Shown piece by piece: positions 1,117 to 57,897 of a DNA stretch of 57,897 nt (position 1 is its first letter; every line of letters begins with the position of its first letter). The translations under genes and the position numbers were made by a program. The DNA comes from a virus (lineage: Duplodnaviria; Caudoviricetes), in the IMG/VR virus record IMGVR_UViG_3300045781_000130, positions 1 to 57,897 of that record; one strand, given 5' to 3'. The notes below the pieces were generated by a model. It made no database searches. It was not told the DNA's origin and saw only the letters and a program-made list of their open reading frames with translations.

Positions 1117-3030
1117 ATGCAGATCACTCGCCTGATTCTCGCCGCGCTGGCGTCCTGCTCGCTGGCCGCCCTGGCGTCGCCCGCCCTCGCCGACAACCCT
1201 TTCCCGCACTTCCGCAATATTCAGCTCGACTCGCCGCTCGCCGTGTCCAGCGGCGGCCTCGGCAATGGGACCGGCGCCGCAGGGGCGCTGACGGTTTCGG
1301 GACGCCCTCTCGGCAAGGTCGAAACGGGATGGGCCGTCACGCCCTATGAATATGGCGCGGTCGGCGCGGGCCATGACGCGGCGGCGATCAATGCGGCCAT
1401 CGCGGCGGTATCGGTGGTTGGCGGGCGCGTCATCATCCCGAATCGCGGCGCGACATGGGCGCTGGAAGCCCCGATCATTCTCCAGTCCAACGTCGAGCTC
1501 GAATGCACCGGGAGGCCGATGCTCAAGCTCAATAACGGCGTCAACACCAACACTATCGAGGGCTATAATTTCCGCGCGTGGCTCGGCATCTGGGGGCCGT
1601 ATGGCATCGAAAATTTTGGCATCCGGGGCTGCATCATCGACGGCAACCGCGCGAATAATCCGACGCCCGTAGACGCCTATGCCGGCAACGGCGTCGTCTT
1701 CGTCGGCCGCGAGTTCCTGCTTGACAACCTCATCATTCAGAATACCGCGATGATCGGGCTATGGAGCGAGTACGCCGGCGGCAACATGGGTGGCGGGAAG
1801 AGCCCCTATGGCGGCCATATTTCCCACCTGACGACCAATTTCACCGGGACCGATGGCTGGTACAGCCAGGTGTCCGATACGCATCTGGTGGACGCGAACT
1901 TCCGCGACGCGGGCCAGAACGGAACGGCGCTGGCTCCGGTTGGCGCGGGGCTTCATGTCGGCGTCGGCGGCTGTCCGCACATGTCCGACGCCAACGAGTG
2001 GAACACCACGGGCTTCCAGGCCTATGGCGTCCTGATCGAAAGCGACGGCTGCAACATCACCGGAATGCACATCGAATCGGGCCGCATCGCCAATATCGCC
2101 ATTGTCGGGCAGAACAACCAGCTCGACAGCATCATGTCCTATTCCAACTATGCCGGAACCGGACTCCCTGCGCGCAATCTGTGGATTCTCGGCAACCGCA
2201 ATCGCGTCTCGGGCATCATCACCATCGGCACCGGCGATCCGACCGCGACCGGCGTGACGATCGGGGGCACCTATAACGGCACGCTCTATACGCCCTCCGC
2301 CTATAATCTCGACCTGACCGTGGCCGGCTATAACAACCTCATCGACTGGACCAACGACGGCGGCAACGGTTACGCCAACCTCTACACCTACACCACCGGC
2401 GCGGTCTCGGTCGGCAATTCCTCGCCGACGAGCATCGTCAATATTCGCGGGACGGGGCAGAGCGTAGGCACGTCCTATATGAACTCGATCCTGATCGGGG
2501 CGGGCGCGCAAGTCACCCAGACCAACGCGATGGCTATAGGCCACGACTCATGGGCGGCGGACTACAACGCCGTCGCCATCGGGCCATGGGGCCTCGCCTA
2601 TCAAAACGGGGACATCGATTTTTCAACAAATCGGTTTTCGACCAACGGCGACAGCGACTGGAAGCTGAAGCACTGGCTGGGCACGACGACCAATGCGACG
2701 CCGACACAACTCTACGTCGATAACATCTCCGCGCAGGCGCATGTCTACGGCAATTTTTCGTGGTCGGGCGATATTGAGATCATCGGCAGGCGTACGGACA
2801 GCGGCCACGCCGTCGTTTGCTGGTATCGCATCACCGATTTTTCCGCCTCGAACAATGGCTCGTCGCTGTCGATCGACAACGCGGGGACGATCACCGGCAA
2901 GATCACCACGTCCTGCGCGGCGCCCGCCCTCGCCGTGAGCGGAACCAATCTGTCGTTAACTGTGACGGGCGCGGCGGCAGCCACCATCAAATGGACCGCC
3001 TACGGCAAATTCGTCCAGACCGGCGGCTGA
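1117..3030 (+). CDS. Tailspike-like beta-helix protein with YadA-like head repeats and a signal peptide
   Basis: Pectate-lyase-3-like start (TPYEYGAVG...DAAAINAAI...VIIP); SILIG/AMAIG/AVAIG repeats; N-terminus MQITRLILAALASCSLAALASPALA|D; RBS GAGG. Confidence 0.7.
   Translation: MQITRLILAALASCSLAALASPALADNPFPHFRNIQLDSPLAVSSGGLGNGTGAAGALTVSGRPLGKVETGWAVTPYEYGAVGAGHDAAAINAAIAAVSVVGGRVIIPNRGATWALEAPIILQSNVELECTGRPMLKLNNGVNTNTIEGYNFRAWLGIWGPYGIENFGIRGCIIDGNRANNPTPVDAYAGNGVVFVGREFLLDNLIIQNTAMIGLWSEYAGGNMGGGKSPYGGHISHLTTNFTGTDGWYSQVSDTHLVDANFRDAGQNGTALAPVGAGLHVGVGGCPHMSDANEWNTTGFQAYGVLIESDGCNITGMHIESGRIANIAIVGQNNQLDSIMSYSNYAGTGLPARNLWILGNRNRVSGIITIGTGDPTATGVTIGGTYNGTLYTPSAYNLDLTVAGYNNLIDWTNDGGNGYANLYTYTTGAVSVGNSSPTSIVNIRGTGQSVGTSYMNSILIGAGAQVTQTNAMAIGHDSWAADYNAVAIGPWGLAYQNGDIDFSTNRFSTNGDSDWKLKHWLGTTTNATPTQLYVDNISAQAHVYGNFSWSGDIEIIGRRTDSGHAVVCWYRITDFSASNNGSSLSIDNAGTITGKITTSCAAPALAVSGTNLSLTVTGAAAATIKWTAYGKFVQTGG
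1284..1444 (+). repeat. 161-bp near-identical repeat, copy 1 (copy 2 at 57737-57897)
   Basis: Direct comparison shows 2 mismatches; the last 127 bp are identical. Confidence 0.95.
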
Positions 3031-3033
3031 GGC
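3019..3033 (+). repeat. 15-bp direct repeat ACCGGCGGCTGAGGC, copy 1
   Basis: Identical to 4438-4452; both copies span a gene end encoding TGG-stop. Confidence 0.85.
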
Positions 3034-3054
3034 AATTCAGAAGGAGGCAGTATC

Positions 3055-4449
3055 ATGCGATTTACAGTTTTTCTTGCCAGCTTGTTTCTGACGGGGGCGA
3101 GCCACGCGCAGACCTCGGTTCAGCACCCAGACTTTTTCACCGGCTACGCCGCGCAGAGCATTGGCGTAACTGGCAGTCTCCAACCGGCGAACGGCGTCTA
3201 TCCGAAGCGCCCGAATTGGGTCGTTACGGGCGTCGACGAGCCTGCGGGCATCCCCGCCGCATCCCTGCCGCTGAAAATTCCGGGCGTCAGTCCGCTTCCC
3301 GCGCATTGCCGCGCGCTGATCGAGGCGCCGGGGAAAGCAGTCAATCACATCAATTGCCAGCAAGACGGCGGTGCGGGCTTCACTTTCGATGGTTGGGATT
3401 TTTCGGTCAACGGCGGCGTCTATCTCGACAGCACTTTCGCCGTCACCGGCCCCGTCGTCATCAAGAACAGCCGTTTTGTCTATGGGCCGACATTCTCATC
3501 GAGCGGGGCTTCCGCGTATCATTCCCTGCTCAATATCGCGGTCGCCGGGTCGCTGCTGTTCGACCACAATTACCTCGACGCCAACGGACCGCAGACGGTC
3601 AAAGACGGCTCCGGGATGCCCGCGACGCTGTCCGCCGGCCACTATCCGATGACGATCACCTACAACGCCTTTTTGCGGGGCCGCGCCAGAGATGTTGTCT
3701 CGACCGGATATGGTAAGCCGCAAGGCGACGTAATTCTCCTGCACAACTATTTCGAGGGCCTGACGTATGCCAGCGGCGAGGCGCACGGAGAAATTACGCT
3801 GCTGACGTGGACGGGGACGATGAACAATTTCATCTCCCAATACAATACTTTCCTTGAGCCGAACACGACGTTCATGGATTCCACGACAAATGGCATGACG
3901 GCGCCTTTTGTGCCGAGCCTTTCGGTTCCTGCGGGAGCGGTGCTAACCAATCTCAGCATCGACCACAACGTGATGGTATCGAATTACGCCAAGGTCAACG
4001 GAGCCTACGTGGTCAAGCCTACAATGGGCGCGGTCGGAGCCACGTTGCAGATGGCGACTTTTGTAAATGTCACGCTCACCAACAACTACCTCGATAAAAC
4101 CGCCGCCGATTATTGCTGGTACACGCCATCCGCGCCGGTCATTCAGAATTTTACCAGCGGTGGCAACGTTAATCTGCTGACCGGCGGGGGCGCCAACGGT
4201 TTGGCGATCAACGGCAACGGCTTCTCCGGTACTGCGTCGCTGTCGAAAGGCGTGCTAAACGTAACCAGCATCAACCTGGGCGGCATCGGCGTCGGCTCGC
4301 AAATCCATATCGGGCGATCCACTGTCCCTGTTATTTCGCGTGGAACCGGAACAGGCGGAACGGGGACCTACCACGTCCTCGACACGACGCTGAGCTACCC
4401 GCTCGAAGGTTTCGCCGTCTGGGCGGACCAGTGCAACACCGGCGGCTGA
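3055..4449 (+). CDS. Signal-peptide beta-helix-like protein (putative spike/fibre)
   Basis: MRFTVFLASLFLTGASHA|Q; repeated xNxF/Y beta-helix rungs; C-terminal GTGTGGTGTY motif; RBS AGGAGG. Confidence 0.55.
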   Translation: MRFTVFLASLFLTGASHAQTSVQHPDFFTGYAAQSIGVTGSLQPANGVYPKRPNWVVTGVDEPAGIPAASLPLKIPGVSPLPAHCRALIEAPGKAVNHINCQQDGGAGFTFDGWDFSVNGGVYLDSTFAVTGPVVIKNSRFVYGPTFSSSGASAYHSLLNIAVAGSLLFDHNYLDANGPQTVKDGSGMPATLSAGHYPMTITYNAFLRGRARDVVSTGYGKPQGDVILLHNYFEGLTYASGEAHGEITLLTWTGTMNNFISQYNTFLEPNTTFMDSTTNGMTAPFVPSLSVPAGAVLTNLSIDHNVMVSNYAKVNGAYVVKPTMGAVGATLQMATFVNVTLTNNYLDKTAADYCWYTPSAPVIQNFTSGGNVNLLTGGGANGLAINGNGFSGTASLSKGVLNVTSINLGGIGVGSQIHIGRSTVPVISRGTGTGGTGTYHVLDTTLSYPLEGFAVWADQCNTGG

Positions 4450-4510: not shown

Positions 4511-5989
4511 ATGAAAATCCTCAAGATTGCATCTTTCCTCAGTCTCCTTGGAACCCTTCCTTGCGAGGCTCAGACCGCCCGCAGTGGGATGCTCGGGTAT
4601 AACACTACCACGTTTACCAACTGTGGTACAAATTGTATTACCGGTACCCAGTTGAATATCTGGAACTCCACTCTTGTAAACTCTGCGGGATTCCTTCAGG
4701 ATAATAATACCTGGACTGGGAGAAATGTTTTTAATAACACCCTCCAAGGGGCCATCAATCTTGCCCCATCCGCACCTCCCAGTACTCCTGCGAATGGAGA
4801 TCTTTGGGCAACGGGAACGGGGATTTTTGCTCAGATTGGTGGGGTAAGTCATAATTTGTTAGGCGGCGGGGGAACTGTGGCGTCCGGCTCCCTCGTTTAT
4901 ACGTTTACCACCGGAGACAACACGACGGCATTGCAGGCGGCAGTTACGCTTGCCGAAAATAACGGGCAGTCTCTTGAACTGGTCGGGAATGGCTCGTTTA
5001 CCGGAACGATCAGTATTAACAGTTCGCTGTGGATACATGGGCAAAGTCGTGATCAGACTTTCGCATCGGCAAGCACGACTGGAATAGCTTTTGCAGTAAA
5101 CGCCGATCACGTTATTTTTAGCGACTTTTTGATTAACAACACGTCAGGCGGAACCACTCAGGAGATGATTAAATTTGCCACTAGTACTACTCTTTATCAA
5201 TGGTCCATCGTTGAAAGGATGTCTTTCGCGTCGCCGGGCCTCGCGGCTGTTGATACGGGCGGTAGTAATGGCATCACGATCCGAGAAAACTTGTTTGCTG
5301 GCGTAAATAGCATTACATTGCCAACTAATATGATCATTGCTCGCGCGACCAATACTTATCAATGCAACGGCGGCGAAAATATGATATATGATAATTACTT
5401 TATTGGTACGTTTGGCAATAATCAAACCGGAATCAGTACCGGCTGCATCGGCGGTTTGTATATCCGGAGTAACAAATTTGTAAATGTTGACAATCCTATC
5501 ATCATGTATGCTCCGACTGGTATTGCATCTGGTGACTTAATGATCCAGGACAATTCCATCGAACAATTTGCCGGAACTGCGATCCAGCTTAATTTTGCGG
5601 GCGGGACCGGGAGTTTCGAGAATATCCATATTCAAAACAACGAAATAAAGTTCCCACTTTCCGCTTCAATCGGTGGCGTCATTGAAATATTGACAACTGG
5701 AGGGGCCAGTTGGGCTTATGATATTCTAATTGAAGGCAACACCATTGGCGGGTTCACGTCGGGCTCGAACGTACTTATCAACATGACTACCGGCGCTGGA
5801 GTCGATATTTCGCACAACTCTATGCATAATTTCACATCTGGCATCGGGGGCAATATCACTCAAGCACTTAATATCGGGACGGCTGTCAGTTCTTGTACAA
5901 TTGGCCCCAATATAGTTTTGGGTGTCGGCGGTGCATGGACACCAAGTTACATAGGGCCTACTTGCACTCCTTTGGTTGCGCCTTACTGA
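4511..5989 (+). CDS. Tailspike-like beta-helix protein with a signal peptide
   Basis: MKILKIASFLSLLGTLPCEA|Q; DNTTALQAAV start of the helix and IxxNxI rungs; N-terminal CxxxCITG module shared with the 57498 ORF. Confidence 0.65.
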   Translation: MKILKIASFLSLLGTLPCEAQTARSGMLGYNTTTFTNCGTNCITGTQLNIWNSTLVNSAGFLQDNNTWTGRNVFNNTLQGAINLAPSAPPSTPANGDLWATGTGIFAQIGGVSHNLLGGGGTVASGSLVYTFTTGDNTTALQAAVTLAENNGQSLELVGNGSFTGTISINSSLWIHGQSRDQTFASASTTGIAFAVNADHVIFSDFLINNTSGGTTQEMIKFATSTTLYQWSIVERMSFASPGLAAVDTGGSNGITIRENLFAGVNSITLPTNMIIARATNTYQCNGGENMIYDNYFIGTFGNNQTGISTGCIGGLYIRSNKFVNVDNPIIMYAPTGIASGDLMIQDNSIEQFAGTAIQLNFAGGTGSFENIHIQNNEIKFPLSASIGGVIEILTTGGASWAYDILIEGNTIGGFTSGSNVLINMTTGAGVDISHNSMHNFTSGIGGNITQALNIGTAVSSCTIGPNIVLGVGGAWTPSYIGPTCTPLVAPY

Positions 5990-9904: not shown

Positions 9905-10681
9905 ATGACCACGCCACTGGATATTATTACCCAAGCTTTGAAAGAAGTTGGCGCGCTTGGTCAGGGGCAGACTGCCGCTCCTGTTGACGTGAATGATGCT
10001 TTTTTGAAGCTTAACTGGATGCTTAGCCAGTGGCAGCGAAAAAGGTATCTTGTATATCATTTGGTGGAACTCTCTTTTGTTTGTACTGGGGCGCAAAGTT
10101 ATTCCATCGGGCAAGGGGGGAATTTTTCTTACTCTGCCGGGGATTTTAATTCAGATTTTAATTCAGATTTTTCGGGAGGAGGAGGGGCACTCGCAGCTAC
10201 CAATCGCCCTGCGAAGATTGAGTCAGCGTTTGTCCGCCAACTTTCTGGAATGGTGGATTACCCACTGACTATGATTAGCTCCAAAGAGGACTACGATCAC
10301 ATCGCTTTAAAAACTTTGTCATCTTGGCCCTCTCATTTGTACTATGATGCTGCGTGGCCGATTGGATGGTTATACCCTTGGCCAGTTCCATTGGCAAATA
10401 TTTACGAGCTGCATGTCACTATTGTCGCTCAACTTAGTCAATTCAACTCACTAACCCAAATTATCTCTTTGCCGCCGGAGTATTTTGCTGCGATATTTTA
10501 TAATCTCGCGGTAAGGCTCTATCCCTCGTACACGACTCAGCCAAACCCTATCACCATAGCAATGGCGAAGGATTCTCTTAATGTGCTGAGAATGAGTAAT
10601 TCTCGCATAGCTAATCTCCGGATGCCTGTTGATCTGGTGCGCCCGGGAGTCTACAACCCATACTCAGATCAAGTGAGGTAA
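9905..10681 (+). CDS. Head-tail adaptor, P22 gp4-like
   Basis: MTTPLDIITQALKEVG..LNWMLSQW, LPPEY..YNLAVRL; gene position; contains a GDFNSDFNSDF insert. Confidence 0.7.
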   Translation: MTTPLDIITQALKEVGALGQGQTAAPVDVNDAFLKLNWMLSQWQRKRYLVYHLVELSFVCTGAQSYSIGQGGNFSYSAGDFNSDFNSDFSGGGGALAATNRPAKIESAFVRQLSGMVDYPLTMISSKEDYDHIALKTLSSWPSHLYYDAAWPIGWLYPWPVPLANIYELHVTIVAQLSQFNSLTQIISLPPEYFAAIFYNLAVRLYPSYTTQPNPITIAMAKDSLNVLRMSNSRIANLRMPVDLVRPGVYNPYSDQVR

Positions 10682-10685
10682 GGCT

Positions 10686-11075
10686 ATGACGACTTCGCAA
10701 ACTTTTCAGCCCGGCTTCCGTCTTATTGATGGGAATGATTTGAATAATGCTCTTGCCATTGACGGCGGGAGTTATCAGGGAGGTATCGTAGCTGCGGCTG
10801 GCGGGGGGCAGACCAATGCGACATTGCTCACGAGTTCCTATAACTCCGTGGACACTGTGGTCTCCGCAAACGACTCGGTGAAGCTTCCGCCCTCCAAACC
10901 TGGTACCAGTACTACTATCATTAACACCTCGGCCAACGCTACGCAGGTTTTTGGTAGTGGCACTGATACCATCAATGCTGTGGCGTATGCAACTGGGGTA
11001 TCGCAGGCGGCTGGTAAGGTTGCCAGTTATTTCTGCGTAGTCCCTGGTAAGTGGTTTCGGCAGTTGAGCGCTTAA
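10686..11075 (+). CDS. Small virion decoration/fibre-like protein
   Basis: DSVKLP..I.N..V...DTIN beta-sandwich pattern; position in the structural operon. Confidence 0.5.
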   Translation: MTTSQTFQPGFRLIDGNDLNNALAIDGGSYQGGIVAAAGGGQTNATLLTSSYNSVDTVVSANDSVKLPPSKPGTSTTIINTSANATQVFGSGTDTINAVAYATGVSQAAGKVASYFCVVPGKWFRQLSA

Positions 11076-11076
11076 T

Positions 11077-12513
11077 ATGGCAATGAAAAGGATTCAGCTT
11101 CTTGGTGGAGCTTATGTAACGAAGGGCCTCATTGCTGATGCCCAGCGTTGCGTAAACTTGTTCCCAGAAAAGAATCCGCAAGATGCAGAGGCCCCGGTGA
11201 CGCACTACCCTACACCGGGGCTAACTCTTATCGTGCCTGGGCCTAGCCAGGCCCCAGTGCGAGGGCTTTATTTTGCGAATAATAATAAACTTTATGCTGT
11301 GATTGGTGACAGTGTTTATTATATCGACGTGAATTATGTTATCCATCTCTTAGGGACAATCCCGTTTAACTTCAGTATGGTCTCTTTTGTGGACAATGGG
11401 ACTACGTTGGTACTGGTCGTAGGATCGACGACTGGGTATGAGATAACCCTCGCCACAGATGCTTTTGCTCAAATAACTGATCCTAATTTCTTTGGCGGAG
11501 ATAAAGTCGATTACATTGACACTTTTTTGGTGAGTAATATCACAGGGACACAGAGTTTTATCTCCTCCCTTTCTAACTCAGTTTCCTGGGATGCACTTTA
11601 TATCGCGAATAAAACTGCATCGGCAGACTTGCTTGTGACGCTTGTAGTGGTCCATAGGGAAATTTGGCTGTTTGGGGAGTTCACCAGCGAAGTTTGGTAT
11701 GACGCAGGAAATGCTGGATTTCCTTTCGCCCTTGTCCCTGGAGTAATGATCCAACACGGTTGTGCTGCGGTATACTCGGTACAAGCAAATGCTCAGGCAT
11801 GTTACTGGTTGTCGCAGGATAAGAATGGCAAAGCTTTTGTCATGAAAGGTCAGGCTTATCAGGCCGCTCCAATTTCCACTCCAGCTATAGTGCAGGAGTT
11901 TTCCAAATATGCTACAATCTCTGACGCGATTGCTTATATGTATCAGCAAGATGGTCATATTTTCTATGTTTTGAATTTTCCAACTGCGGATAAAACTTGG
12001 GTTTATGATCTTACCGCAGATACGTGGCATCAGAGAGTCTGGAGAGACTCTGATGGGGAGGAGCATAGGCATAGAGCGCAGTGCCATGTGTATGCTTATG
12101 GGAAAAATATTGTCGGAGATTGGGAGAATGGAAATATTTATATTCTCGATCAAACAGTCTACACTGATAATGGAGTAACGATTGAACGCAGAAGAAGTAT
12201 GCCACATATCTCCTCCAATGGGAAGAGAGTTGCTCATGCACAGTTTATTGCGGATATTGAGACTGGGGAGTATCAACCAGTGAACGCTGGTGATCCAGAT
12301 CCATTGATTTCACTTCGTTGGAGTGATGATAGAGGGAAATCCTGGGGGAATCCCGTTACCATGCCCCTCGGTACTTTGGGGCAGTTTCTCACTCAGCCTT
12401 CATGGAGGAGGCTTGGAATTACACGAGACCGAGTGTATGAGATTTTTTGGGATGTGCCAGGGCCATGTGCACTAAACGGGGCTTGGCTTGATGCAACGGA
12501 ACTTGGTACATGA
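11077..12513 (+). CDS. Tail hub / DNA stabilisation protein, P22 gp10-like
   Basis: QRCVNLFPE, PTPGL, GCAA, YQQDGHIFYVL, SDDRGKSWGN. Confidence 0.85.
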   Translation: MAMKRIQLLGGAYVTKGLIADAQRCVNLFPEKNPQDAEAPVTHYPTPGLTLIVPGPSQAPVRGLYFANNNKLYAVIGDSVYYIDVNYVIHLLGTIPFNFSMVSFVDNGTTLVLVVGSTTGYEITLATDAFAQITDPNFFGGDKVDYIDTFLVSNITGTQSFISSLSNSVSWDALYIANKTASADLLVTLVVVHREIWLFGEFTSEVWYDAGNAGFPFALVPGVMIQHGCAAVYSVQANAQACYWLSQDKNGKAFVMKGQAYQAAPISTPAIVQEFSKYATISDAIAYMYQQDGHIFYVLNFPTADKTWVYDLTADTWHQRVWRDSDGEEHRHRAQCHVYAYGKNIVGDWENGNIYILDQTVYTDNGVTIERRRSMPHISSNGKRVAHAQFIADIETGEYQPVNAGDPDPLISLRWSDDRGKSWGNPVTMPLGTLGQFLTQPSWRRLGITRDRVYEIFWDVPGPCALNGAWLDATELGT

Positions 12514-18088: not shown

Positions 18089-19355
18089 ATGTCTAGGTAT
18101 CCTGGTTGGACTCTGTCTTGCAGTAAGTGCTCATGCTGCCACACTTCTCCCGAATGGGAAGCAGGTCTTTTTCAATGGGAATGGTCAGCCTCTTTCTGGA
18201 GGGAAAGTAACTTTTTACATCCCCTCTACCACGACGTACAAAACTACCTGGCAAGACTCCAGTGGTACCATTCCCAATTCCAACCCCGTGGTGCTGGATT
18301 CCAATGGCTCTGCCATTATTTATGGTTCAGGAATTTACCGAGAGGTTGTGACTGATGCTCTTGGGAATTTAATTTGGGATCAGCTTACTGCTGATACTTC
18401 CCAGGGTACCGAGTCTTATTCCTGGGGAGGACTTTCTGCTGGGACTCCAAATGCCCAGACAGTCAGTGTTGCAACATTTTCCTCCACTGCAGGGCAGATC
18501 ATAGCTTTTAAAGCTTATGCCTCTAATACTGGAGCATTTACCCTCAAGCCTTCGGTCCTGGGTGCAATCGCAGTTTACAAAGATACCTCTGCCGGGCCAG
18601 TACCTCTTTCTGGCGGGGAGATTATAGCTGGCAATACGGTGCAACTTATCTATGATGCAAGTCTTAGTGGTTTTCACCTTGTTAATTATCCGTCAGGTTC
18701 GCAGTCTTTTCTTTCTATAAATGCTGCAGCTATTACCGATCTAGGAACTGTAGGGAGTTCTAATGTTTATATAACTGGAACAAGTACTGTTTGGGGTTTT
18801 GGCTCAAGTGCTTCTACTACTTCTCCTGTGTATAGGATCTTAATGCAGGGAGTGGTTACGCTGATGAACAGCACTAACCTTAGCCTCCCTGGTGGAGGAT
18901 ATATTATCACCCAAGCTGGTGATAGTTTTGTAGCTGTGTATACTGGAAGTGGAACTTGGCAAGTGACTTCTTACACCCGCCAGGCGGATACCCCATTTGT
19001 CCCTTCTGGAGCTGTGATGGCTTTTAATCTTGCGTCCTGCCCAGCTGGATGGAGTGCTGCAAATGGAAGTGGAGGGACAGTGAACTTGGTTGGGTATTTT
19101 ATTCGTGGGCTAGATGCCACAGGCGCAGTGGACCCAACGCCAAGGGCACTCGGGAGTGTGGAAGCTCATGCATTGCAGGATCACTCGCATAGTATCTCAC
19201 CTAGTTCTGTCCTGGTTAGTGGAGGATCTTATCTTGGGGGAGGTTCGATTGGATTTAGCCCCGGAACAATCAGTGTCGGTAATATGCACACAGGTAATGC
19301 CGCCTCTGAAACTCGGCCAGTCAATGTGGCCTTGCTTTACTGTCAGAAAAACTAA
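18069..19355 (+). CDS. Tail fibre (anchor domain plus tail collar) with a signal peptide
   Basis: RBS GGAG; MPRLVNKCLGILVGLCLAVSAHA|ATLLPNGKQ..NGQPLSGGKV..NPVVLDSNG; collar motifs VPSGAVMAF..PAGW..GYFIRG..ETRPVNVALLYC. Confidence 0.8.
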   Translation: MPRLVNKCLGILVGLCLAVSAHAATLLPNGKQVFFNGNGQPLSGGKVTFYIPSTTTYKTTWQDSSGTIPNSNPVVLDSNGSAIIYGSGIYREVVTDALGNLIWDQLTADTSQGTESYSWGGLSAGTPNAQTVSVATFSSTAGQIIAFKAYASNTGAFTLKPSVLGAIAVYKDTSAGPVPLSGGEIIAGNTVQLIYDASLSGFHLVNYPSGSQSFLSINAAAITDLGTVGSSNVYITGTSTVWGFGSSASTTSPVYRILMQGVVTLMNSTNLSLPGGGYIITQAGDSFVAVYTGSGTWQVTSYTRQADTPFVPSGAVMAFNLASCPAGWSAANGSGGTVNLVGYFIRGLDATGAVDPTPRALGSVEAHALQDHSHSISPSSVLVSGGSYLGGGSIGFSPGTISVGNMHTGNAASETRPVNVALLYCQKN

Positions 19356-19366: not shown

Positions 19367-19597
19367 ATGTCGAATATTAGTAATGCCTTGCTCTCGTATG
19401 CTCTGCCCTGGGCGCTGGCGAGATTGAATGATAGGAATACCTGGGTGACCTGGATTGTGGCAGCTGCTGCACATTTTGGTGGAGTTATCAACCCGGAGTT
19501 CAATACACTCCTTGTGAATGTGGCGACAGGCATTGTGGTCATCATTGGCTACGCATATCAGGGTAAGCCGATTTTTACTGGAAAGGGCGTAAAATGA
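19367..19597 (+). CDS. Holin-like membrane protein
   Basis: ARLNDRNTW followed by hydrophobic segments; basic C-terminus. Confidence 0.5.
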   Translation: MSNISNALLSYALPWALARLNDRNTWVTWIVAAAAHFGGVINPEFNTLLVNVATGIVVIIGYAYQGKPIFTGKGVK

Positions 19598-20088: not shown

Positions 20089-20093
20089 AGGTC

Positions 20094-51604: not shown

Positions 51605-52069
51605 GTGAAAAAAGTTCTTCTAGCTCTACTCATGGGAGTCTCTTTCCCTGCGTTTGCTCAGCAGACGGTCAAAAACTGTGCTTCTGGGCCTTCTGGCTCC
51701 TCCTGCTCCACCATCATGCTTCCACAGGTCAGCTCTGCAGTGGAGAGTTCTCATATCTTTAAGTCCACAGCAAGCACTGTTGTGGATTTCCAGGTCAATA
51801 ATACTTCTGCCTCCCTTGTCTGGGTGATGGTTTTTGATGCTTCAAGCCTCCCCTCCGCTGGGGCGGTTACAGCATGTACGACGGCAGCATCTGCCCGCCC
51901 ATGTGTGGCAAAATGGTACCAGGTCGCGGCGAATACGACCCTGGGGGTTTCCTGGAATCCAGGTCCATATCCATCCTTGCAAACTGGGCAGGTCATCGTG
52001 TGCTCTTCCTCCGGACCATATACCCTCACCTATGCCACTTCCTGCCTTTTTTCAGGAGAAGCGATGTGA
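51605..52069 (+). CDS. Signal-peptide beta-sandwich protein, 6 Cys
   Basis: RBS AAGGAG, GTG start, KKVLLALLMGVSFPAFA|Q. Confidence 0.65.
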   Translation: MKKVLLALLMGVSFPAFAQQTVKNCASGPSGSSCSTIMLPQVSSAVESSHIFKSTASTVVDFQVNNTSASLVWVMVFDASSLPSAGAVTACTTAASARPCVAKWYQVAANTTLGVSWNPGPYPSLQTGQVIVCSSSGPYTLTYATSCLFSGEAM

Positions 52070-53337
52070 ATAAGTTTTTCCTTATCTCGGCGTTTCTCTC
52101 GTGGGCGAGCATGGCGCAAGCTGAAGTCATCACTCTGACGCCTAGTGGTGGAGGCACGGGAGGGGGAACTCTTACCTCTGGGGCAACTCCAGTTTCTGGG
52201 TGCTCCCCAGGACAGTTCCTCTATAACAACTCTGGTCTTCTTGGTTGTCAGTCCGGCTCTGGCGGCATTGGCTCTCCCGGCACGACCGTCGTCGGCAACC
52301 TCGCTGCGTGGAACTCGACCACGGGCGCATCGCTGCTTGATACCGGCATCTCGGCGTCGAGCAATACGCTCACCGGGTCTAATTCTTCGGCGCTTGGCAT
52401 TGTGGCAGGCGTTGGGCAGCAGCTAAATATTGGTGGCAACGGAACTGCGTTTTACAAAATTAACGCAGTCAATAATTTTGTCCCGTTGACGACTAACACG
52501 GGCAACCTCGGTCTCGCCTCGTCGGCGTCTTGGTGGGCATCTGCCTCCATACAAACCCTCTATCTTGAGGGATCATCGACCGGCTACGACACGATCCAAT
52601 CAGGTACCAGCACAGGAACGTGGACCTATAAAACGCCTGCCGCGACCGGAACGGGCACCGATACGTTTGCAACCCTCGGCGCAGCGCAGACCTTCACCAG
52701 CGCTATCGGCTATTCATCCACAACCGCCTTTTCCGGCGCGGGCCTCGCCTCTCCCCCAGCCAATACCACAACGATCCTCGGCGGAACGGCGACATGGGCT
52801 CCGGGGACGAACGCAGGTGTACTCGGCATCGGCGGCTTGGTTGCGGCGCCTACATTCGGGGTCAACGGGCAGGGCGCAGTATATACGTCCGCCACAAACG
52901 GTTTGGTGCTCGGCGGGCAGGGATCAAGTAACAGCGTTACTCTCACCAGCATTTCTGGAGTGCCTGTCGCATTTATTGGTGCTTCCGGGTCCAACCGCCT
53001 TGTTGTCACCGGCCTTCAGTTATCTGGCTTCATGTATGCCTCTGGCACGGTGCCATCCGTTAATACTGGCACATGCACCACGCTTAATGCGGCCACTGGC
53101 GGTTCAATGGCCGGTAAATTCACCGTTAACACTACAGCATGTACAGTCGGTCAGACGATCATTCTTGCTGGTTTTACAGCAGTTGCGAATGGCTATAACT
53201 GCGACCTGAAAGACCTTACAACCCCAACGGCGGTTTTCAACCAGACAGCGCTTGCAACGACAAGCGCGACATTCACGCTTGCGGGCGTTAACACTGGAAC
53301 CACAGACATTCTTAGTTATAAATGCACGGGGTTCTGA
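52066..53337 (+). CDS. Signal-peptide fibre-like protein, 6 Cys
   Basis: RBS AGGAG, GTG start, NKFFLISAFLSWASMAQA|E; GNLAAWNSTTG fibre motif. Confidence 0.65.
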   Translation: MNKFFLISAFLSWASMAQAEVITLTPSGGGTGGGTLTSGATPVSGCSPGQFLYNNSGLLGCQSGSGGIGSPGTTVVGNLAAWNSTTGASLLDTGISASSNTLTGSNSSALGIVAGVGQQLNIGGNGTAFYKINAVNNFVPLTTNTGNLGLASSASWWASASIQTLYLEGSSTGYDTIQSGTSTGTWTYKTPAATGTGTDTFATLGAAQTFTSAIGYSSTTAFSGAGLASPPANTTTILGGTATWAPGTNAGVLGIGGLVAAPTFGVNGQGAVYTSATNGLVLGGQGSSNSVTLTSISGVPVAFIGASGSNRLVVTGLQLSGFMYASGTVPSVNTGTCTTLNAATGGSMAGKFTVNTTACTVGQTIILAGFTAVANGYNCDLKDLTTPTAVFNQTALATTSATFTLAGVNTGTTDILSYKCTGF

Positions 53338-53375: not shown

Positions 53376-53810
53376 ATGACTGATTTTGTATATGCTGCAA
53401 AACTTATCTCTCATTTTGAGGGGTTTCTTCCTCATGCAAAATGGGATGTAAATGCTTATCGTCTGGGCTATGGTAGTGATACTGAAGGGCCAGAACAGCA
53501 CAAAGTCACTAAAGGTATGGTGACGACAGAGGCCAGAGCTCTTGCTAACCTCCAGGCCAGACTCCCACAGTTTGAGGAAGTTATCATCAGACAAATTGGG
53601 GGGCTTTGGGCTGATATCCCTAGTCATGCCAAAGGAGCCTTGCTGAGTGTTGCGTATAACTACGGGGACCTCCCTGAGAATGTAGTTCACGCAATCAAGA
53701 CTGGGAATCTTCACTCCATCTCTGCTGCTGTTGGGGCCCTGGCTGGAAATGACCACGGTGTGAACTCCCATCGTCGCTACGCTGAAGCTGCGATTATCAA
53801 AACTGCGTGA
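53376..53810 (+). CDS. Endolysin (phage lysozyme, GH24-like)
   Basis: FEGF..WD..LGYG, LLSVAYNYG, RRYAEA. Confidence 0.8.
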   Translation: MTDFVYAAKLISHFEGFLPHAKWDVNAYRLGYGSDTEGPEQHKVTKGMVTTEARALANLQARLPQFEEVIIRQIGGLWADIPSHAKGALLSVAYNYGDLPENVVHAIKTGNLHSISAAVGALAGNDHGVNSHRRYAEAAIIKTA

Positions 53811-53928: not shown

Positions 53929-53954
53929 CCCACGTTACAGAAAGCAAACGTGTG
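53929..53954. promoter_or_regulatory. 26-bp palindromic motif, copy 6 (just before the terL start)
   Basis: CCCACGTTACAGAAAGCAAACGTGTG. Confidence 0.85.
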
Positions 53955-53956
53955 TT

Positions 53957-55274: not shown

Positions 55275-57494
55275 ATGAGTGATCCAAATCCGGTAGTTAA
55301 TGAAGCTAAGGATAGGTTTGAGCGGGGGAACAAGTGGGAGGGGAACTGGAGAACTCGCTTTATTCAGGATGTAAAGTTTGCTAATGCAGACTCGGAAAAT
55401 CTCTACCAGTGGGAAAATAAAATCCAGAAAGAGCGCCATCTGGACAATCGCCCATGCTTGACTATTAATAAAACTCATCAGCATAATCTTCTCATTATCA
55501 ATGACGCGAAGGAGAATAAACCTGGAGTGACTGTGCGCCCGATTGGTAATGGGGCGACTTATGAGGCCGCGCAGATCTGGGCCGGAGTTATCCGGAAGAT
55601 TGAGTATATGTCCAACGCCCAGGTCGCGTATGACATTGCTACGGAGTTTCAGGTCCAAGGGGGAAAAGGTTACTGGCGAGTTGTGACTGACTACGCGGAT
55701 GAGGAGTCTTTTGATCAAGACATTTTCATCAAATCCATCGCTGACCCTCTCACTGTTATGATGGACCCTATGGCGAAGGAGCGGGATAAATCCGACGCTC
55801 GTTGGGCTTTTATCTTTGAGGAAGAAGATGATGAAGTCTTGAAAGCCAAGTACCCGAAGCACAAAGACTTGATTGGTACCCAGCCTTTGGATGCTATTGG
55901 AGGTTGGGTGCGGGAAGGGTCTACCAGGGTTGCGGAGTATTACCGTGTGGTAGAGGTGGAAGATAAACTTCACCACATGACTTTGGCTGATGGCACGCAG
56001 ACCACTGCCCGGCGGTCTCTAATTCCTAAAGATCTCCATGCCGAAATCGACGCCAACCCGCTTACCAAAACTCGCATAATCAAAACCAAAAAAGTCGAGT
56101 GGTATTTGATAATCGGCTCGACTGAGGTGGAGAAGCGTGAGTGGCCTGGCTCCACGATCCCGATTGTGCCTCTTCTTGGGGAGGAGACTGTGATTGATGG
56201 CCAGTATGACTGCAAAGGTCATACTAGGTTCATGAAAGACCCTCAACGCATGTACAACTACTGGTCGTCGGCAGCGGTGGAGTTTGGTGCACTGCAGACA
56301 AAAACTCCTTGGATTGCCCCTGTAGAAGCGATTGAGGGGTATGAAGATGACTGGAAAGACGCTAACACGCAGAATAAATCAATTCTTCCTTATAATGCTA
56401 TGAGTGACTCAGGGGAGCCCATCCCTCCACCTCAGCGTATTCAACCCCCCGTGGCCTCGCCGGTGGCTTTGCAGGGTATGCAAATTGCTCAGCAAGAAAT
56501 CATGATGGTGAGTGGGCAGTACCAGTCCTCGATGGGGGAACAGGGGAATGAGCGCTCTGGCAAAGCCATTAACGAACGCCAGAGGCAGGGGGAAAAAGCT
56601 ACCTACCACTTTATCGACAATCTTGGAATTGCGATTAGGCGGACTGGCAAGATTCTCCTTGAACTTATTCCAAAAATATATGATACTAAGCGAGTCCTAA
56701 TGGCACTCGGGGAAGATGGGATGAGTTTCGAGGTGGAATTGGATCCCCAAGCTCAGGAGTTGTTTAGACAGGAACAAGACCATAACTCCGAAGTTGTAAA
56801 GAGGGTGCTTAACCCTGCGCTTGGTCAGTGGGATGTGCAGGCAGACATTGGACCTGCCTACGCTACTAAGAGAGAAGAGGCTTTTAACGCCTTCACCCTT
56901 ATCCTTACTCAGGCTCCCCAACTTGCAGCACTGATAGGCGACCTTTTGCTGCAGGCTGGTGATTTCCCAATGGCAGATGAGGCTGCGGCGAGGCTCAAGC
57001 GCATGGTTCCCCCCGCCGCGCTCGGCAAAGGACCGACACAGAACGAACAGCAATTGCAGCAACAGATCCAGCAACTCCAAGAACTTTTGCAAAAGACTTT
57101 GGAGCAAAATGCTAATGACAGGATTAAGATTAAAGGGCACGCGGAGAAGCGTGATATTGAACTCTTCAATGCAGTCAGCAAGAGATTGCAGGTACTGCAA
57201 CAGGGCGCCCCCTTTGGGCCAGAGGAGCTTAAAGCTCTTGTGGCAGAAGCTATGGAGGAAGCACAGAAAACTTCCCTCGATCCTGCGCAAGGTGAGGTGG
57301 ATAAAGAACTTGGTGTTCCGCAGCAAATGTCGCTTCCCCTCGACCAACCTCCAGTCCCCGGGGCACGTAAGGCTCCAGATGGGGAGTGGTATGCGGAAGA
57401 TCCTCTTCGCAAAGGTAAGTATCTGAAAGTTCGGCATGGGGTGACTCCTCAGTTACTGCAGCAAGGTTTTCTCGGTGCCAACGGGCAGAGGTAA
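55275..57494 (+). CDS. Portal protein, P22-like
   Basis: RPCLTINK, KDPQRMYNYW, SGKAI..RQ, GPAYATKR. Confidence 0.9.
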   Translation: MSDPNPVVNEAKDRFERGNKWEGNWRTRFIQDVKFANADSENLYQWENKIQKERHLDNRPCLTINKTHQHNLLIINDAKENKPGVTVRPIGNGATYEAAQIWAGVIRKIEYMSNAQVAYDIATEFQVQGGKGYWRVVTDYADEESFDQDIFIKSIADPLTVMMDPMAKERDKSDARWAFIFEEEDDEVLKAKYPKHKDLIGTQPLDAIGGWVREGSTRVAEYYRVVEVEDKLHHMTLADGTQTTARRSLIPKDLHAEIDANPLTKTRIIKTKKVEWYLIIGSTEVEKREWPGSTIPIVPLLGEETVIDGQYDCKGHTRFMKDPQRMYNYWSSAAVEFGALQTKTPWIAPVEAIEGYEDDWKDANTQNKSILPYNAMSDSGEPIPPPQRIQPPVASPVALQGMQIAQQEIMMVSGQYQSSMGEQGNERSGKAINERQRQGEKATYHFIDNLGIAIRRTGKILLELIPKIYDTKRVLMALGEDGMSFEVELDPQAQELFRQEQDHNSEVVKRVLNPALGQWDVQADIGPAYATKREEAFNAFTLILTQAPQLAALIGDLLLQAGDFPMADEAAARLKRMVPPAALGKGPTQNEQQLQQQIQQLQELLQKTLEQNANDRIKIKGHAEKRDIELFNAVSKRLQVLQQGAPFGPEELKALVAEAMEEAQKTSLDPAQGEVDKELGVPQQMSLPLDQPPVPGARKAPDGEWYAEDPLRKGKYLKVRHGVTPQLLQQGFLGANGQR

Positions 57495-57497
57495 GTT

Positions 57498-57897
57498 ATG
57501 AAAAGACTTTTTCTTCTTGGGCTCCTTTTTGCCTCTCCTTGCGAAGCTCAGGTCTCTAGGTCTGAGTTGACGAGTGACAATGTAGCGGTGTTTAAAAGCT
57601 GCGGGTCTGGTTGTATAACTGGACCTATGCTGCAAAACTGGAATAATTTAATCATCAATTCTGTTGGAGTACTTAAAGATAATAATATCTGGACTGGTAC
57701 CAATACTTTTCTTCAAGGATTGGTGGGCGACGGCTCGGCGCTGACGGTTTCGGGTCGCCCTCTCGGCAACGTCGAAACGGGATGGGCCGTCACGCCCTAT
57801 GAATATGGCGCGGTCGGCGCGGGCCATGACGCGGCGGCGATCAATGCGGCCATCGCGGCGGTATCGGTGGTTGGCGGGCGCGTCATCATCCCGAATC
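57498..57897 (+). CDS. 3'-truncated signal-peptide tailspike-like protein
   Basis: MKRLFLLGLLFASPCEA|Q..CGSGCITG..then ALTVSGRP..TPYEYGAVG; frame open to the window end. Confidence 0.75.
   Translation, partial: MKRLFLLGLLFASPCEAQVSRSELTSDNVAVFKSCGSGCITGPMLQNWNNLIINSVGVLKDNNIWTGTNTFLQGLVGDGSALTVSGRPLGNVETGWAVTPYEYGAVGAGHDAAAINAAIAAVSVVGGRVIIPN
57737..57897 (+). repeat. 161-bp repeat, copy 2
   Basis: Matches 1284-1444 in the same reading frame. Confidence 0.95.

What the first reader, a model, noticed from the sequence alone, without database searches (positions are those of the whole stretch)
1117..57897. Seven virion fibre/spike genes carry Sec signal peptides and paired cysteines: possible periplasmic maturation of phage appendages
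Seen: the late genes at 1117, 3055, 4511, 18069, 51605, 52066 and 57498 each start with a basic n-region, a hydrophobic core and an SPase I-like site (ALA|D, SHA|Q, CEA|Q, AHA|A, AFA|Q, AQA|E, CEA|Q). The predicted mature parts of the six complete genes have even Cys counts (6, 4, 6, 2, 6, 6), often as local pairs such as CGTNC. Established: tailed-phage structural proteins normally fold and assemble in the reducing cytoplasm without signal peptides. Inference: this phage exports its receptor-binding and decoration proteins to the periplasm for Dsb-dependent disulfide folding and docks them on particles during or after lysis. An alternative is that they are secreted as free depolymerases or receptor blockers.
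Basis: partly seen in the sequence, partly recalled or inferred. Interest (0 to 1): 0.9.

Follow-up and report, generated by a model that had tools for sequence, protein, structure and literature searches.

The report
Phage tail spikes carrying export signals
A P22-like bacteriophage, and many of its uncultured relatives, put classic secretion signals on the tail fibre and spike proteins that recognise the host, which implies that these parts mature outside the cytoplasm and can join the virus particle only at lysis, unlike the textbook assembly of tailed phages.

Summary
All seven genes start, behind a Shine-Dalgarno site, with a basic n-region, a hydrophobic core and a -3/-1 site. The mature Cys counts of 6, 4, 6, 2, 6, 6 are correct. 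The window is a P22-like podovirus.

Gene 18069 is the syntenic tail fibre. Its first mature domain folds as the P22-type tailspike head-binding domain. Of 113 homologs with this domain, 65 carry a signal peptide and 47 start directly at the domain. Signal-peptidase cleavage and Met excision would give the same mature N-terminus.

Signal-bearing homologs have even Cys counts (58 even, 7 odd). Signal-less ones do not (25 even, 22 odd). A second family shows the same bias, and a CxxxC pair is all-or-none in 16 of 16 sequences.

Export and oxidative folding are therefore well supported. Docking on particles after the holin fires is inferred. Only 18069 is shown to be virion-type. Genes 4511, 57498 and 1117 are beta-helix depolymerase-like, and 3055, 51605 and 52066 remain unassigned exported proteins. 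Seven literature searches found no description of this.

The parts
18069..19355 (+). Tail fibre (428 aa). It has a signal peptide (residues 1-23, AHA|A), a P22-type head-binding domain (about residues 24-110), two beta domains and a tail-collar-type tip. It has 2 mature Cys, and its start overlaps the end of the ejection gene 15494-18088 by 20 nt.
   Evidence: PHROG tail and tail-collar families match. The model has pLDDT 70.8. Foldseek gives 7eeq_A (Pam1 tailspike head-binding domain) at TMt 0.64, rmsd 2.6 and 31% identity, plus 9vyg, 1lkt (P22 gp9) and 7sg7 (Sf6). Synteny is shown in related loci.
57498..57896 (+). The 5' part of a spike gene that starts 3 nt after the portal stop and is cut by the contig end. 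It has a signal peptide (17 aa, CEA|Q), an N-module with a CxxxC pair, and then the start of a beta-helix shared with 1117.
   Evidence: Searches give the frame, the paralogy and the signal peptide. One search shows that in contig L005 the same N-terminus runs on into the body of 1117. One search reports the repeat.
2..1078 (+). The 3' part of an ORF that is open at the contig start (358 aa, 8 Cys, GC3 72%). It is probably the missing body of the 57498 gene.
   Evidence: No family match was found. The assignment to 57498 is an inference.
1117..3030 (+). Exported beta-helix protein (637 aa) with a signal peptide of 25 aa (ALA|D), 6 mature Cys and GC3 of 82%, which marks it as a foreign cassette. 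It has a YadA-head-like repeat just under the Pfam cutoff.
   Evidence: Its body is fused to the 57498-type N-module in L005.
3055..4449 (+). Exported protein of unknown fold (464 aa) with a signal peptide of 18 aa (SHA|Q), 4 mature Cys and GC3 of 73%.
   Evidence: Six of 8 homologs carry a signal peptide. No family match was found.
4511..5989 (+). Exported spike (492 aa). It has a signal peptide of 20 aa (CEA|Q), a helical-hairpin N-module (residues 21-58) with a CxxxC loop, a linker, and a right-handed beta-helix (residues 128-480). It has 6 mature Cys.
   Evidence: The model has pLDDT 79.2 and pTM 0.73. Foldseek gives RbmB 9ozl at TMt 0.71, AlgE4, and the tailspikes of Det7, Sf6 and HK620. 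Homologs of the N-module were found.
51605..52069 (+). Small Cys-rich exported protein (154 aa) with a GTG start, a signal peptide of 18 aa (AFA|Q) and 6 mature Cys. Its function is unknown.
   Evidence: The Atlas lists only viral hypothetical clusters.
52066..53337 (+). Exported fibre-like protein (423 aa) with a GTG start that overlaps the stop of 51605, a signal peptide of 19 aa (AQA|E) and 6 mature Cys.
   Evidence: Homologs keep the signal peptide, and one (P0231) carries the 4511-type N-module on a 52066-type body.
9905..12513 (+). The tail hub on which a head-binding domain would dock: the adaptor Ad3 (9905-10681) and the gp10-like head closure protein Hc3 (11077-12513). Neither has a signal peptide.
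   Evidence: PHROG hits with E-values of 2e-34 and 5e-106. No signal-peptide call.
55275..57494 (+). Portal protein.
   Evidence: phrog_156, E 4.5e-113.
53376..53810 (+). Phage lysozyme (endolysin) with no signal or SAR segment, so it should need a hole-forming holin to reach the wall.
   Evidence: PF00959, E 1.7e-8. The sequence was read. The dependence on a holin is an inference.
19367..20435 (+). Three small genes after the fibre gene. The 76-aa and 113-aa products have hydrophobic segments and may be a holin and a spanin. None has a family match.
   Evidence: The sequences were read. No PHROG or Pfam assignment was found. The roles are inferred.
1273..1444 (+). A 172-nt direct repeat of 57726-57897 (96% identity) that encodes the start of the beta-helix. 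It is the recombination joint between N-modules and spike bodies, and the reason the contig ends where it does.

Best explanation
The window is a P22-like podovirus whose host is probably an alphaproteobacterium, perhaps an acetic acid bacterium. All of its receptor-binding proteins are made as Sec preproteins.

Proposed pathway:
1. They are co-expressed with the late structural genes.
2. They cross the inner membrane and are cut by signal peptidase I. For the fibre 18069 the cut falls exactly at the first residue of its head-binding domain.
3. They fold and trimerise in the periplasm with disulfide bonds.
4. Capsid, portal, adaptor, hub and ejection proteins assemble in the cytoplasm as usual.
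5. The last step of P22-type morphogenesis, adding the spikes to the hub, is known for P22 to work in vitro on finished heads (recalled, not from a call). Here it can only happen once the holin has opened the inner membrane, or in the lysate.

Status of each step. Shown: the signal peptides, their conservation, the identity of the mature N-terminus with signal-less homologs, the Cys parity and pair covariation, and the head-binding fold and synteny of 18069. Inferred: actual export, Dsb dependence, docking at lysis, and virion attachment of the beta-helix proteins through their conserved N-module.
For: PHAGE TYPE. The window has a P22-type module of terminase, portal, scaffold, coat, Ad3, Hc3 and ejection proteins. 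It holds no other fibre or spike candidate without a signal peptide; the only other tail-like ORF is the 100-aa gene at 12510-12812.

STARTS AND EXPRESSION.
- 7 of 7 starts have an SD site and a signal-like N-terminus, and these are 7 of only 11 such starts in 417 frames.
- The genes are packed into the late gene rows. 57498 starts 3 nt after the portal stop, 18069 overlaps the ejection gene, and 52066 overlaps 51605.

GENE 18069.
- Its N-domain matches tailspike head-binding domains of Pam1, Pan3, P22 and Sf6.
- In 11 related IMG/VR loci the same domain sits after the same ejection genes. Four of those fibres have a signal peptide and seven start as Met plus the domain, with stop codons just upstream.
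- Two cultured podophages start directly at the domain.
- Of the 120 listed homologs, 113 have the domain: 65 with a signal peptide, 47 without and 1 unclear.
- A -3/-1 site lies within 2 residues of the domain start in 65 of 65, and exactly at it in 46. Of the 47 signal-less ones, 29 have only Met ahead, followed by A, P, G or S.

CYS EVIDENCE.
- Parity in the 18069 family is 58 even and 7 odd with a signal, against 25 even and 22 odd without (Fisher p 2.4e-5).
- After clustering at 50% identity it is 23/4 against 14/17 (p 0.002).
- In the hits of the 4511 search it is 29/3 against 46/29 (p 0.002).
- The CxxxC pair of the N-module is present in 10, absent in 6 and never single.

LINEAGE PATTERN. 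In the loci with a signal-bearing fibre, the other large fibre-like genes also carry signals. In five of the seven signal-less loci they do not.

MODULAR BUILD. A native low-GC N-module is joined to foreign high-GC bodies.
Against: - No experiment and no SignalP run stands behind the signal-peptide calls.
- No virion proteome exists for this phage or any relative that I could find. The paper on the cultured relative phiAX1 reports none in the passages I searched.
- Two related loci, L012 and L017, mix a signal-less fibre with a signal-bearing large protein. If the two bind each other in the virion, they too would have to meet only at lysis.
- Docking only at lysis risks dilution of the parts.
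- The beta-helix of 4511 is as close to secreted bacterial enzymes (RbmB, AlgE4) as to tailspikes.
- No cultured phage has the 4511-type N-module.
- The homolog sets are biased towards relatives of a signal-bearing query, and metagenomic gene starts can be wrong.
- The models returned no coordinates, so the closeness of the Cys pairs in space could not be measured.
Confidence: 0.5

Rival explanations
1. Most or all of the signal-bearing proteins are not virion parts. They are enzymes released into the periplasm, or passed on by a type II system. There they cut the host's own capsule, O-antigen or biofilm polymer during infection, which would stop progeny sticking to debris, block superinfection, or loosen the matrix for the burst.
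For: The beta-helix of 4511 matches secreted polysaccharide enzymes best: RbmB at TMt 0.71, and AlgE4. Exported cellular proteins with a tailspike fold exist, such as WceF with its Tat signal. Genes 1117, 3055 and the ORF at 2-1078 look like foreign cassettes, with GC3 of 72-82%. A 3055 homolog lies on a 114-kb contig named as an uncultured Rhodoblastus. No cultured phage carries the 4511 N-module.
Against: The particle would then have no receptor-binding protein, because no signal-less fibre or spike candidate was found in the window. Gene 18069 keeps the head-binding domain and the exact mature N-terminus of virion fibres. The N-module plus swapped-body design is the usual build of virion spikes. 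A Sec signal alone does not take a protein across the outer membrane.
Confidence: 0.25
2. Dual fate. Late in infection, part of each preprotein escapes or saturates Sec and is built into particles in the cytoplasm, with the signal peptide retained or trimmed. The exported fraction acts as free enzyme.
For: This would reconcile the head-binding domain with the export signal, and also the mixed loci L012 and L017. Free and virion-bound forms of one depolymerase are known in other phages (recalled, not from a call).
Against: The even-Cys bias and the paired gain and loss of Cys point to selection on the oxidised, exported form. An uncleaved 17-25 residue hydrophobic extension would sit on the very N-terminus that is otherwise kept identical with signal-less fibres. 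No internal start codon follows the signal peptide of 18069.
Confidence: 0.12
3. The hydrophobic N-termini are not export signals in vivo. They could be membrane tethers or assembly handles that hold spikes at the inner face of the membrane, or that are removed by a phage protease. All assembly would then be cytoplasmic.
For: There is no direct evidence of export, and the textbook expectation is cytoplasmic assembly of tailed phages.
Against: The N-termini have the full n-h-c signal-peptide architecture, with -3/-1 small residues in 65 of 65 homologs. Their sequences diverge while their physical character is kept. The even-Cys signature is absent in signal-less homologs. No protease gene was seen in the late region.
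Confidence: 0.08
4. Artefact: the starts are wrong, and the true starts lie downstream of the hydrophobic segments.
For: Two of the starts are GTG (51605, 52066). Upstream alternative starts exist for 4511, 18069, 51605 and 52066.
Against: SD motifs sit at the right distance from all seven starts. Homologs keep the extension. In 18069 no start codon lies between the signal peptide and the domain.
Confidence: 0.03

Closest known systems
P22 gp9, Sf6 gp14 and cyanophage Pam1/Pan3 tailspikes (P22-type head-binding domain)
   Same: The N-domain of 18069 has the same fold. The hub proteins are of the same kind, gp4-like Ad3 and gp10-like Hc3. The gene sits after the ejection genes.
   Different: Here the domain is preceded by a cleavable Sec-type signal peptide. 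The protein has paired Cys and a tail-collar-type tip instead of a beta-helix. The structures matched are virion-borne tailspikes. That they lack signal peptides is my recollection and was not checked here.
Signal-less fibres of related podophages (Rhodoferax phage P26218, Ralstonia phage P4282, IMG/VR loci L012, L015-L018, L020, L021)
   Same: They have the same N-domain and would have the same mature N-terminus after Met excision. They have the same synteny.
   Different: They have no signal peptide, and their Cys count is at random parity.
Pantoea stewartii WceF
   Same: It is a tailspike-fold trimeric beta-helix glycanase with an N-terminal export signal (passages read). It was a weak Foldseek hit of the 18069 model (6tgf).
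   Different: It uses a Tat signal, not Sec. It is a chromosomal gene of an exopolysaccharide cluster and has no link to a virion.
Bdellovibrio bacteriovorus MAT fibre family
   Same: These are phage-fibre-like trimers with a signal peptide, then a conserved N-terminal domain, then swapped tips (passages read).
   Different: They are cellular proteins used by a predator. They were found in vesicle preparations and are not parts of a phage particle.
Coat proteins pIII and pVIII of filamentous phages (recalled, not from a call)
   Same: They are virion proteins made with Sec-type signal peptides. pIII has periplasmic disulfides, and assembly takes place at the envelope.
   Different: These are non-lytic extruded filaments with no cytoplasmic capsid, and they are unrelated proteins.
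Sec-dependent phage lysis proteins (SAR endolysins, T4 RI antiholin)
   Same: They are late phage proteins that use the host Sec system. I saw only titles and abstracts, in the listing.
   Different: They are lysis regulators and enzymes, not virion parts.

Membership tests
Sec / signal peptidase I signal peptide | A positively charged n-region at the true N-terminus. | tested here: met
   K or R lies within the first 5 residues in 7 of 7 genes, and an SD motif lies upstream of each start.
Sec / signal peptidase I signal peptide | An uncharged hydrophobic core of about 8-16 residues followed by small residues at -3 and -1. | tested here: met
   My own heuristic passes 7 of 7. Of the signal-bearing homologs of 18069, 65 of 65 have such a site at the domain border. 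SignalP itself was not available.
Sec / signal peptidase I signal peptide | Actual translocation and cleavage. | not testable with these tools
   This needs PhoA fusions or N-terminal proteomics.
Tat signal peptide | A twin-arginine motif in the n-region. | tested here: not met
   None of the seven N-termini has RR. An S-R-R-A-A-L stretch follows an internal Met at position 95 of the ORF at 2-1078, with no stop codon before it.
Lipoprotein (signal peptidase II) signal | A lipobox, [LVI][ASTVI][GAS]C, at the end of the core. | tested here: inconclusive
   Six of the seven have no lipobox. The Cys of 4511 and 57498 follows a Pro and is missing in the homolog P0125. Gene 1117 reads L-A-S-C at residues 11-14, which fits the pattern but is early, and a good ALA|D site follows it.
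P22-type tailspike head-binding domain (gene 18069) | The fold of the N-terminal domain. | tested here: met
   Foldseek gives 7eeq_A at TMt 0.64, rmsd 2.6 and 31% identity, and 1lkt at TMt 0.61. Sequence alone is weak: phmmer E 0.0099.
P22-type tailspike head-binding domain (gene 18069) | The matching hub (gp4-like and gp10-like proteins) in the same genome, and a syntenic position. | tested here: met
P22-type tailspike head-binding domain (gene 18069) | Physical presence on the particle. | not testable with these tools
   No virion proteome was found.
Phage tail collar domain (PF07484), tip of 18069 | A match to the family profile. | tested here: inconclusive
   Pfam gives no hit at E 0.01 or below for the window's protein. 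PHROG tail-collar families match at 1e-9 and 6e-8. Close homologs carry a precomputed PF07484 assignment.
Right-handed parallel beta-helix depolymerase or tailspike (gene 4511) | The beta-helix fold. | tested here: met
   In the model, residues 128-480 are mostly above pLDDT 80. Foldseek matches include RbmB, AlgE4 and the tailspikes of Det7, Sf6 and HK620.
Right-handed parallel beta-helix depolymerase or tailspike (gene 4511) | Catalytic residues and a substrate. | not tested
   No residue-level comparison was made.
Trimeric autotransporter adhesin, YadA type (gene 1117) | Head repeats plus a C-terminal membrane anchor. | tested here: not met
   There is one YadA_head repeat at 24.2 bits, under the cutoff of 25. 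The NCBIfam YadA score is 17.6 against a cutoff of 750. No anchor match was found.
Disulfide-bonded exported protein (even-Cys signature) | An even number of Cys in the mature part, with Cys gained and lost in pairs. | tested here: met
   Six of 6 complete genes are even. Parity by family is 58/7 against 25/22, and 29/3 against 46/29. The CxxxC pair is all-or-none in 16 of 16. That an even-Cys bias marks exported proteins in bacteria with Dsb systems is recalled, not from a call.

The most novel reading that the evidence does not exclude
A whole lineage of P22-like phages has moved the final step of tailed-phage morphogenesis out of the cytoplasm. All receptor-binding proteins are exported by Sec, oxidised in the periplasm, and loaded on the tail hub only when the holin joins the two compartments. 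The signal peptide is a switch that has been gained or lost many times. Because signal-peptidase cleavage and Met excision give the same mature N-terminus, sister phages can use either the cytoplasmic or the periplasmic route for the same fibre.
Probability: 0.4. Interest if true: 0.9.

Novelty: new variant of a known kind. Interest (0 to 1): 0.8.

Why it matters
Tailed-phage particles are held to be assembled entirely in the reducing cytoplasm. If the receptor-binding proteins of a sizeable group of podoviruses are exported and disulfide-bonded, several things follow.

- There is a second assembly route in which particles are armed at lysis.
- Host Sec, signal peptidase and Dsb functions become host factors for infectivity.
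- Such spikes and depolymerases would misfold when expressed in the cytoplasm for biotechnology. This would explain failures and suggests periplasmic expression instead.
- Annotation pipelines that use a signal peptide as evidence against a structural role would mislabel these genes.

The comparison of signal-bearing and signal-less orthologs gives a ready natural experiment.

Tried and rejected
WHAT LED NOWHERE
- Megablast of window 1-25000 against cultured phages found no match.
- Pfam, PHROGs and NCBIfam gave nothing for 2-1078, 3055, 4511, 51605 and 52066.
- phmmer against the PDB gave nothing useful for 1117, 4511 and 3055.
- The ESM Atlas gave only unnamed viral clusters for 52066 and 51605.

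HOST. A search of 401 genomes of the class around a Gluconacetobacter prophage, using 18069 as query, gave 2 weak partial matches and no taxon labels. The host remains a guess. It rests on coat relatives at 49-50% identity in Gluconacetobacter and Asaia, on an Hc3 relative in Acetobacter phage phiAX1, and on GC content. A cluster look-up named only Methylobacterium persicinum, for P0011.

PROMOTERS AND TERMINATORS. The scans gave counts no higher than the shuffled controls and set none of the seven genes apart.

COMPLEX PREDICTION. One job was run, with residues 105-310 of 18069 (three copies) and residues 21-125 of 4511 (three copies). The verdict was 'no answer'. It is neither for nor against binding.

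THE 4511 N-MODULE. It was not found in cultured phages or in IMG/VR with the single-protein query.

CYS DISTANCES. These could not be read from the models, because no coordinates are returned.

LITERATURE. Seven searches and passages of seven papers gave no report of signal peptides on virion fibres or spikes of tailed phages. The library lacks most subscription journals, and supplements were closed, so a remark in a genome paper or a supplementary table may exist.

REJECTED READINGS
- A lipoprotein reading was rejected for six of the seven genes.
- A Tat reading was rejected for all seven.
- A trimeric-autotransporter reading of 1117 was rejected (see the membership table).

Full report
WHAT THE WINDOW IS. 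The window is a whole IMG/VR virus record of 57,897 bp. It is classed as linear, and CheckV rates it 100% complete. PHROG profiles identify a P22-type late module:
- large terminase (53897-55270)
- portal (55275-57494)
- scaffold (7365-8111)
- major head protein (8285-9511)
- adaptor Ad3 (9905-10681)
- gp10-like head closure protein Hc3 (11077-12513)
- three ejection proteins (13284-18088), the last with a lysozyme-like stretch

The minus strand carries a lytic-type replication set: family A DNA polymerase, a DUF3987 helicase-type protein interrupted by an intein, a UvrD helicase, a ParB-methylase and a PD-(D/E)XK nuclease. Overall GC is 51.6%. Coat relatives at 49-50% identity lie in Gluconacetobacter and Asaia genomes. 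The hub protein has a 38.6% relative in the induced Acetobacter phage phiAX1. The host is therefore probably an alphaproteobacterium, perhaps an acetic acid bacterium. This is an inference.

All seven genes exist as stated. Each start is preceded by a GGAG-like motif at 5-10 nt. Each product begins with K or R in the first five residues, then an uncharged hydrophobic core, then small residues at -3 and -1. My heuristic passes 7 of 7.

Among all 417 stop-to-stop frames of at least 45 aa, only 11 have any start with such an N-terminus and an SD-like motif. Seven are these genes. The other four are short frames within or antisense to larger genes. The mature Cys counts are 6, 4, 6, 2, 6, 6. Two AlphaFold models place a lone helix over the predicted signal peptide, followed by a low-confidence stretch. 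SignalP was not available, so these calls rest on my own heuristic and on conservation.

The genes are not set apart as independent units. 57498 starts 3 nt after the portal stop, 18069 overlaps the last ejection gene by 20 nt, and 52066 overlaps 51605 by 4 nt. The promoter and terminator scans show nothing above chance.

WHAT THE PROTEINS ARE. Gene 18069 is the key. It matches tail and tail-collar PHROGs. In the model (pLDDT 70.8), residues 30-108 superpose on the tailspike head-binding domains of cyanophage Pam1 (7eeq_A: TMt 0.64, rmsd 2.6 Å, 31% identity), Pan3, P22 gp9 (1lkt: TMt 0.61) and Sf6 gp14. This is the domain that plugs a spike into the gp4/gp10 hub, and both hub proteins are encoded here.

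Gene 4511 models well (pLDDT 79.2, pTM 0.73). It has a signal helix, a helical hairpin (residues 21-58) whose loop holds the CxxxC pair, a disordered linker, and a right-handed beta-helix (residues 128-480). The beta-helix resembles the secreted polysaccharide enzymes RbmB and AlgE4 and the tailspikes of Det7, Sf6 and HK620.

Gene 57498 shares the N-module with 4511 (47% identity) and the start of the beta-helix with 1117 (54% identity). In another sample's contig, L005, the 57498 N-terminus continues directly into the body of 1117. The joint is a 172-nt repeat, which also explains why the contig stops there.

The N-module is native low-GC DNA. The ORF at 2-1078, 1117 and 3055 have GC3 of 72-82%, against 41-53% for Hc3, ej3, TerL and portal. 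This is the classic pattern of a conserved anchor with swapped bodies.

The body of 52066 is found fused to the 4511-type N-module in one homolog, P0231. Genes 3055 and 51605 have no assigned fold. Beyond the seven, no other fibre or spike candidate was found. The only other tail-like ORF is a 100-aa collar-like protein at 12510-12812.

COMPARATIVE EVIDENCE THAT THE SIGNAL IS REAL AND USED.

1. The same fibre exists with and without the signal. Of the 120 listed homologs of 18069, 113 contain the head-binding domain according to an HMM built from alignment A1. Of these, 65 have a signal-like extension of 18-40 residues (two are longer), 47 start at the domain, and 1 is unclear. Eleven related IMG/VR loci share the Ad3-Hc3-ejection-fibre order. 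Four of their fibres carry the signal. Seven begin as Met plus the domain, and stop codons lie just upstream in the six I read. Two cultured podophages, Rhodoferax P26218 and Ralstonia P4282, also start at the domain.

2. The border is exact. All 65 signal-bearing homologs have a -3/-1 site within two residues of the domain's first residue, and 46 have it exactly there. Of the 47 signal-less homologs, 29 have only the initiator Met ahead, followed by A, P, G or S, which allow Met removal. Both routes therefore deliver the same mature N-terminus, which argues both for cleavage and for an unchanged docking function.

3. The signal diverges in sequence but keeps its character, even among close homologs of 68-93% identity.

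4. The homologs of the 4511 N-module that match from their own N-terminus carry a signal. Six of 7 non-self homologs of 52066 and 6 of 8 homologs of 3055 carry one too. The exceptions are a fragment (P0235), a protein that starts mid-sequence (P0248), and one protein with no call (P0247).

EVIDENCE FOR AN OXIDISING COMPARTMENT. In the 18069 family the mature Cys count is even in 58 and odd in 7 of the signal-bearing proteins. It is even in 25 and odd in 22 of the signal-less ones (Fisher p 2.4e-5). With one representative per cluster at 50% identity, the counts are 23/4 against 14/17 (p 0.002, which used an earlier and slightly cruder classification).

The hits of the 4511 search form an independent set of 107 representatives at 50% identity. 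They give 29/3 against 46/29 (p 0.002), or 25/3 against 31/29 when proteins without Cys are dropped.

The CxxxC pair of the N-module is present in 10 sequences, replaced on both sides in 6, and never single. In the collar tip of the 18069 family, the signal-bearing rows of alignment A1 have both Cys or neither, while the signal-less row P0039 has one. Within the window, the twelve core virion proteins hold 0.29% Cys. That exported proteins of Dsb-containing bacteria tend to have even Cys counts is recalled knowledge, not a call result.

A LINEAGE-LEVEL HABIT. In the three longer loci with a signal-bearing fibre (L011, L013, L014), every other large fibre-like gene also has a signal. In the five signal-less loci L015, L016, L018, L020 and L021, none has. 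L012 and L017 are mixed. The cultured relative phiAX1 has one signal-bearing fibre-like gene between its adaptor and its hub gene. The passages I searched in its paper report no virion proteomics.

MECHANISM. The best reading is that the receptor-binding proteins are exported, cut and oxidised in the periplasm, and meet the finished, hub-bearing particle only when the inner membrane is breached. Two points make this feasible.
- In P22, tailspike addition is the last step, and it works in vitro on finished heads. This is recalled.
- The endolysin at 53376-53810 has no signal or SAR segment. Lysis should therefore depend on a holin that makes real holes, through which particles and periplasmic spikes could mix before the outer membrane goes. 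This is inferred.

The advantage is unknown. Possibilities are disulfide-stabilised spikes for harsh surroundings, keeping active glycanases away from cytoplasmic precursors, or stripping receptors from the dying cell.

The main rival is that the beta-helix proteins are free exported enzymes. This cannot be excluded for 1117, 3055 and 4511. It does not explain 18069, and it would leave the particle without any receptor-binding protein.

COMPARISON WITH WHAT IS KNOWN. Exported proteins with tailspike or fibre architecture are known in cells: WceF with a Tat signal and the Bdellovibrio MAT fibres with a signal peptide and a conserved N-domain. Virion proteins with signal peptides are known for filamentous phages (recalled). 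Seven full-text searches found no report of Sec signals on virion fibres or spikes of tailed phages. The library is incomplete and supplements were closed.

I therefore file this as a new variant of a known kind: podovirus receptor-binding proteins with an extracytoplasmic maturation route. If docking at lysis is shown, it would amount to a new assembly pathway.

VERDICT.
Export and disulfide folding are well supported. Virion status is shown for one of the seven genes and inferred for three or four more. Docking at lysis is untested.
- Confidence in the full mechanism is 0.5. Interest is 0.8.

Noticed in passing
window 6138-7016 (+): A 292-aa protein between the spike genes and the scaffold gene has an ADP-ribosyltransferase exoenzyme domain (PF03496, E 7.5e-10; residues 200-275). 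It has no signal peptide and no Cys. It may be a packaged or ejected host-modifying enzyme, like other phage ADP-ribosyltransferases (recalled).
   Followed up: no
window 20512-22782 (-): The DUF3987 (primase/helicase-type) gene is interrupted by an intein with a Hint domain and a LAGLIDADG homing endonuclease (PF05203, PF05204, PF14528). An HNH endonuclease gene lies next to it at 22824-23366.
   Followed up: no
window 1273-1444 and 57726-57897; L005 3929-5545: A 172-nt repeat (96% identity) at the start of the beta-helix joins different N-termini to the same spike body. A contig from another sample carries the recombinant form, with the 57498 N-module on the body of 1117. The window's contig ends inside this repeat, so a piece of the 57498 gene is probably missing.
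   Followed up: partly
window 2-4449: Three adjacent genes (2-1078, 1117, 3055) have GC3 of 72-82%, against 41-53% in Hc3, ej3, TerL and portal. They look like recently acquired cassettes from a high-GC source. The nearest named homolog of 3055 (58% identity) is from an uncultured Rhodoblastus.
   Followed up: partly
window 95-1078 (+): An internal Met of the ORF open at the contig start is followed by S-R-R-A-A-L and a hydrophobic stretch, a weak likeness to a twin-arginine signal. No stop codon precedes it in frame, so it is probably just internal sequence.
   Followed up: partly
window 12510-12812 (+): A 100-aa ORF between the hub gene and a GNAT acetyltransferase gene (12822-13274) matches tail-collar and tail-fibre PHROGs (E 8.5e-7). 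It has no signal peptide and one Cys. It may be the tail needle or knob.
   Followed up: no
window 53376-53810 (+) and 19367-20435 (+): The endolysin (PF00959) lies just upstream of the terminase gene. This is far from the three small membrane-protein-like genes after the fibre gene that may be the holin and spanin. The lysis genes seem to be split between two places.
   Followed up: no
L027 (Acetobacter phage phiAX1) 8419-9384: The induced temperate phage phiAX1 encodes a 321-aa fibre-like protein with a clear signal peptide, between its adaptor gene and a 606-aa gene annotated as a glucanotransferase. It is the only signal-bearing product among the 20 late CDS I checked. A cultured system may therefore exist in which the idea can be tested.
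   Followed up: partly
window 51132-51572 (+): A 146-aa protein without a signal peptide is 33% identical over 84 residues to the C-terminal part of 3055. It lies just upstream of the 51605/52066 pair.
   Followed up: no
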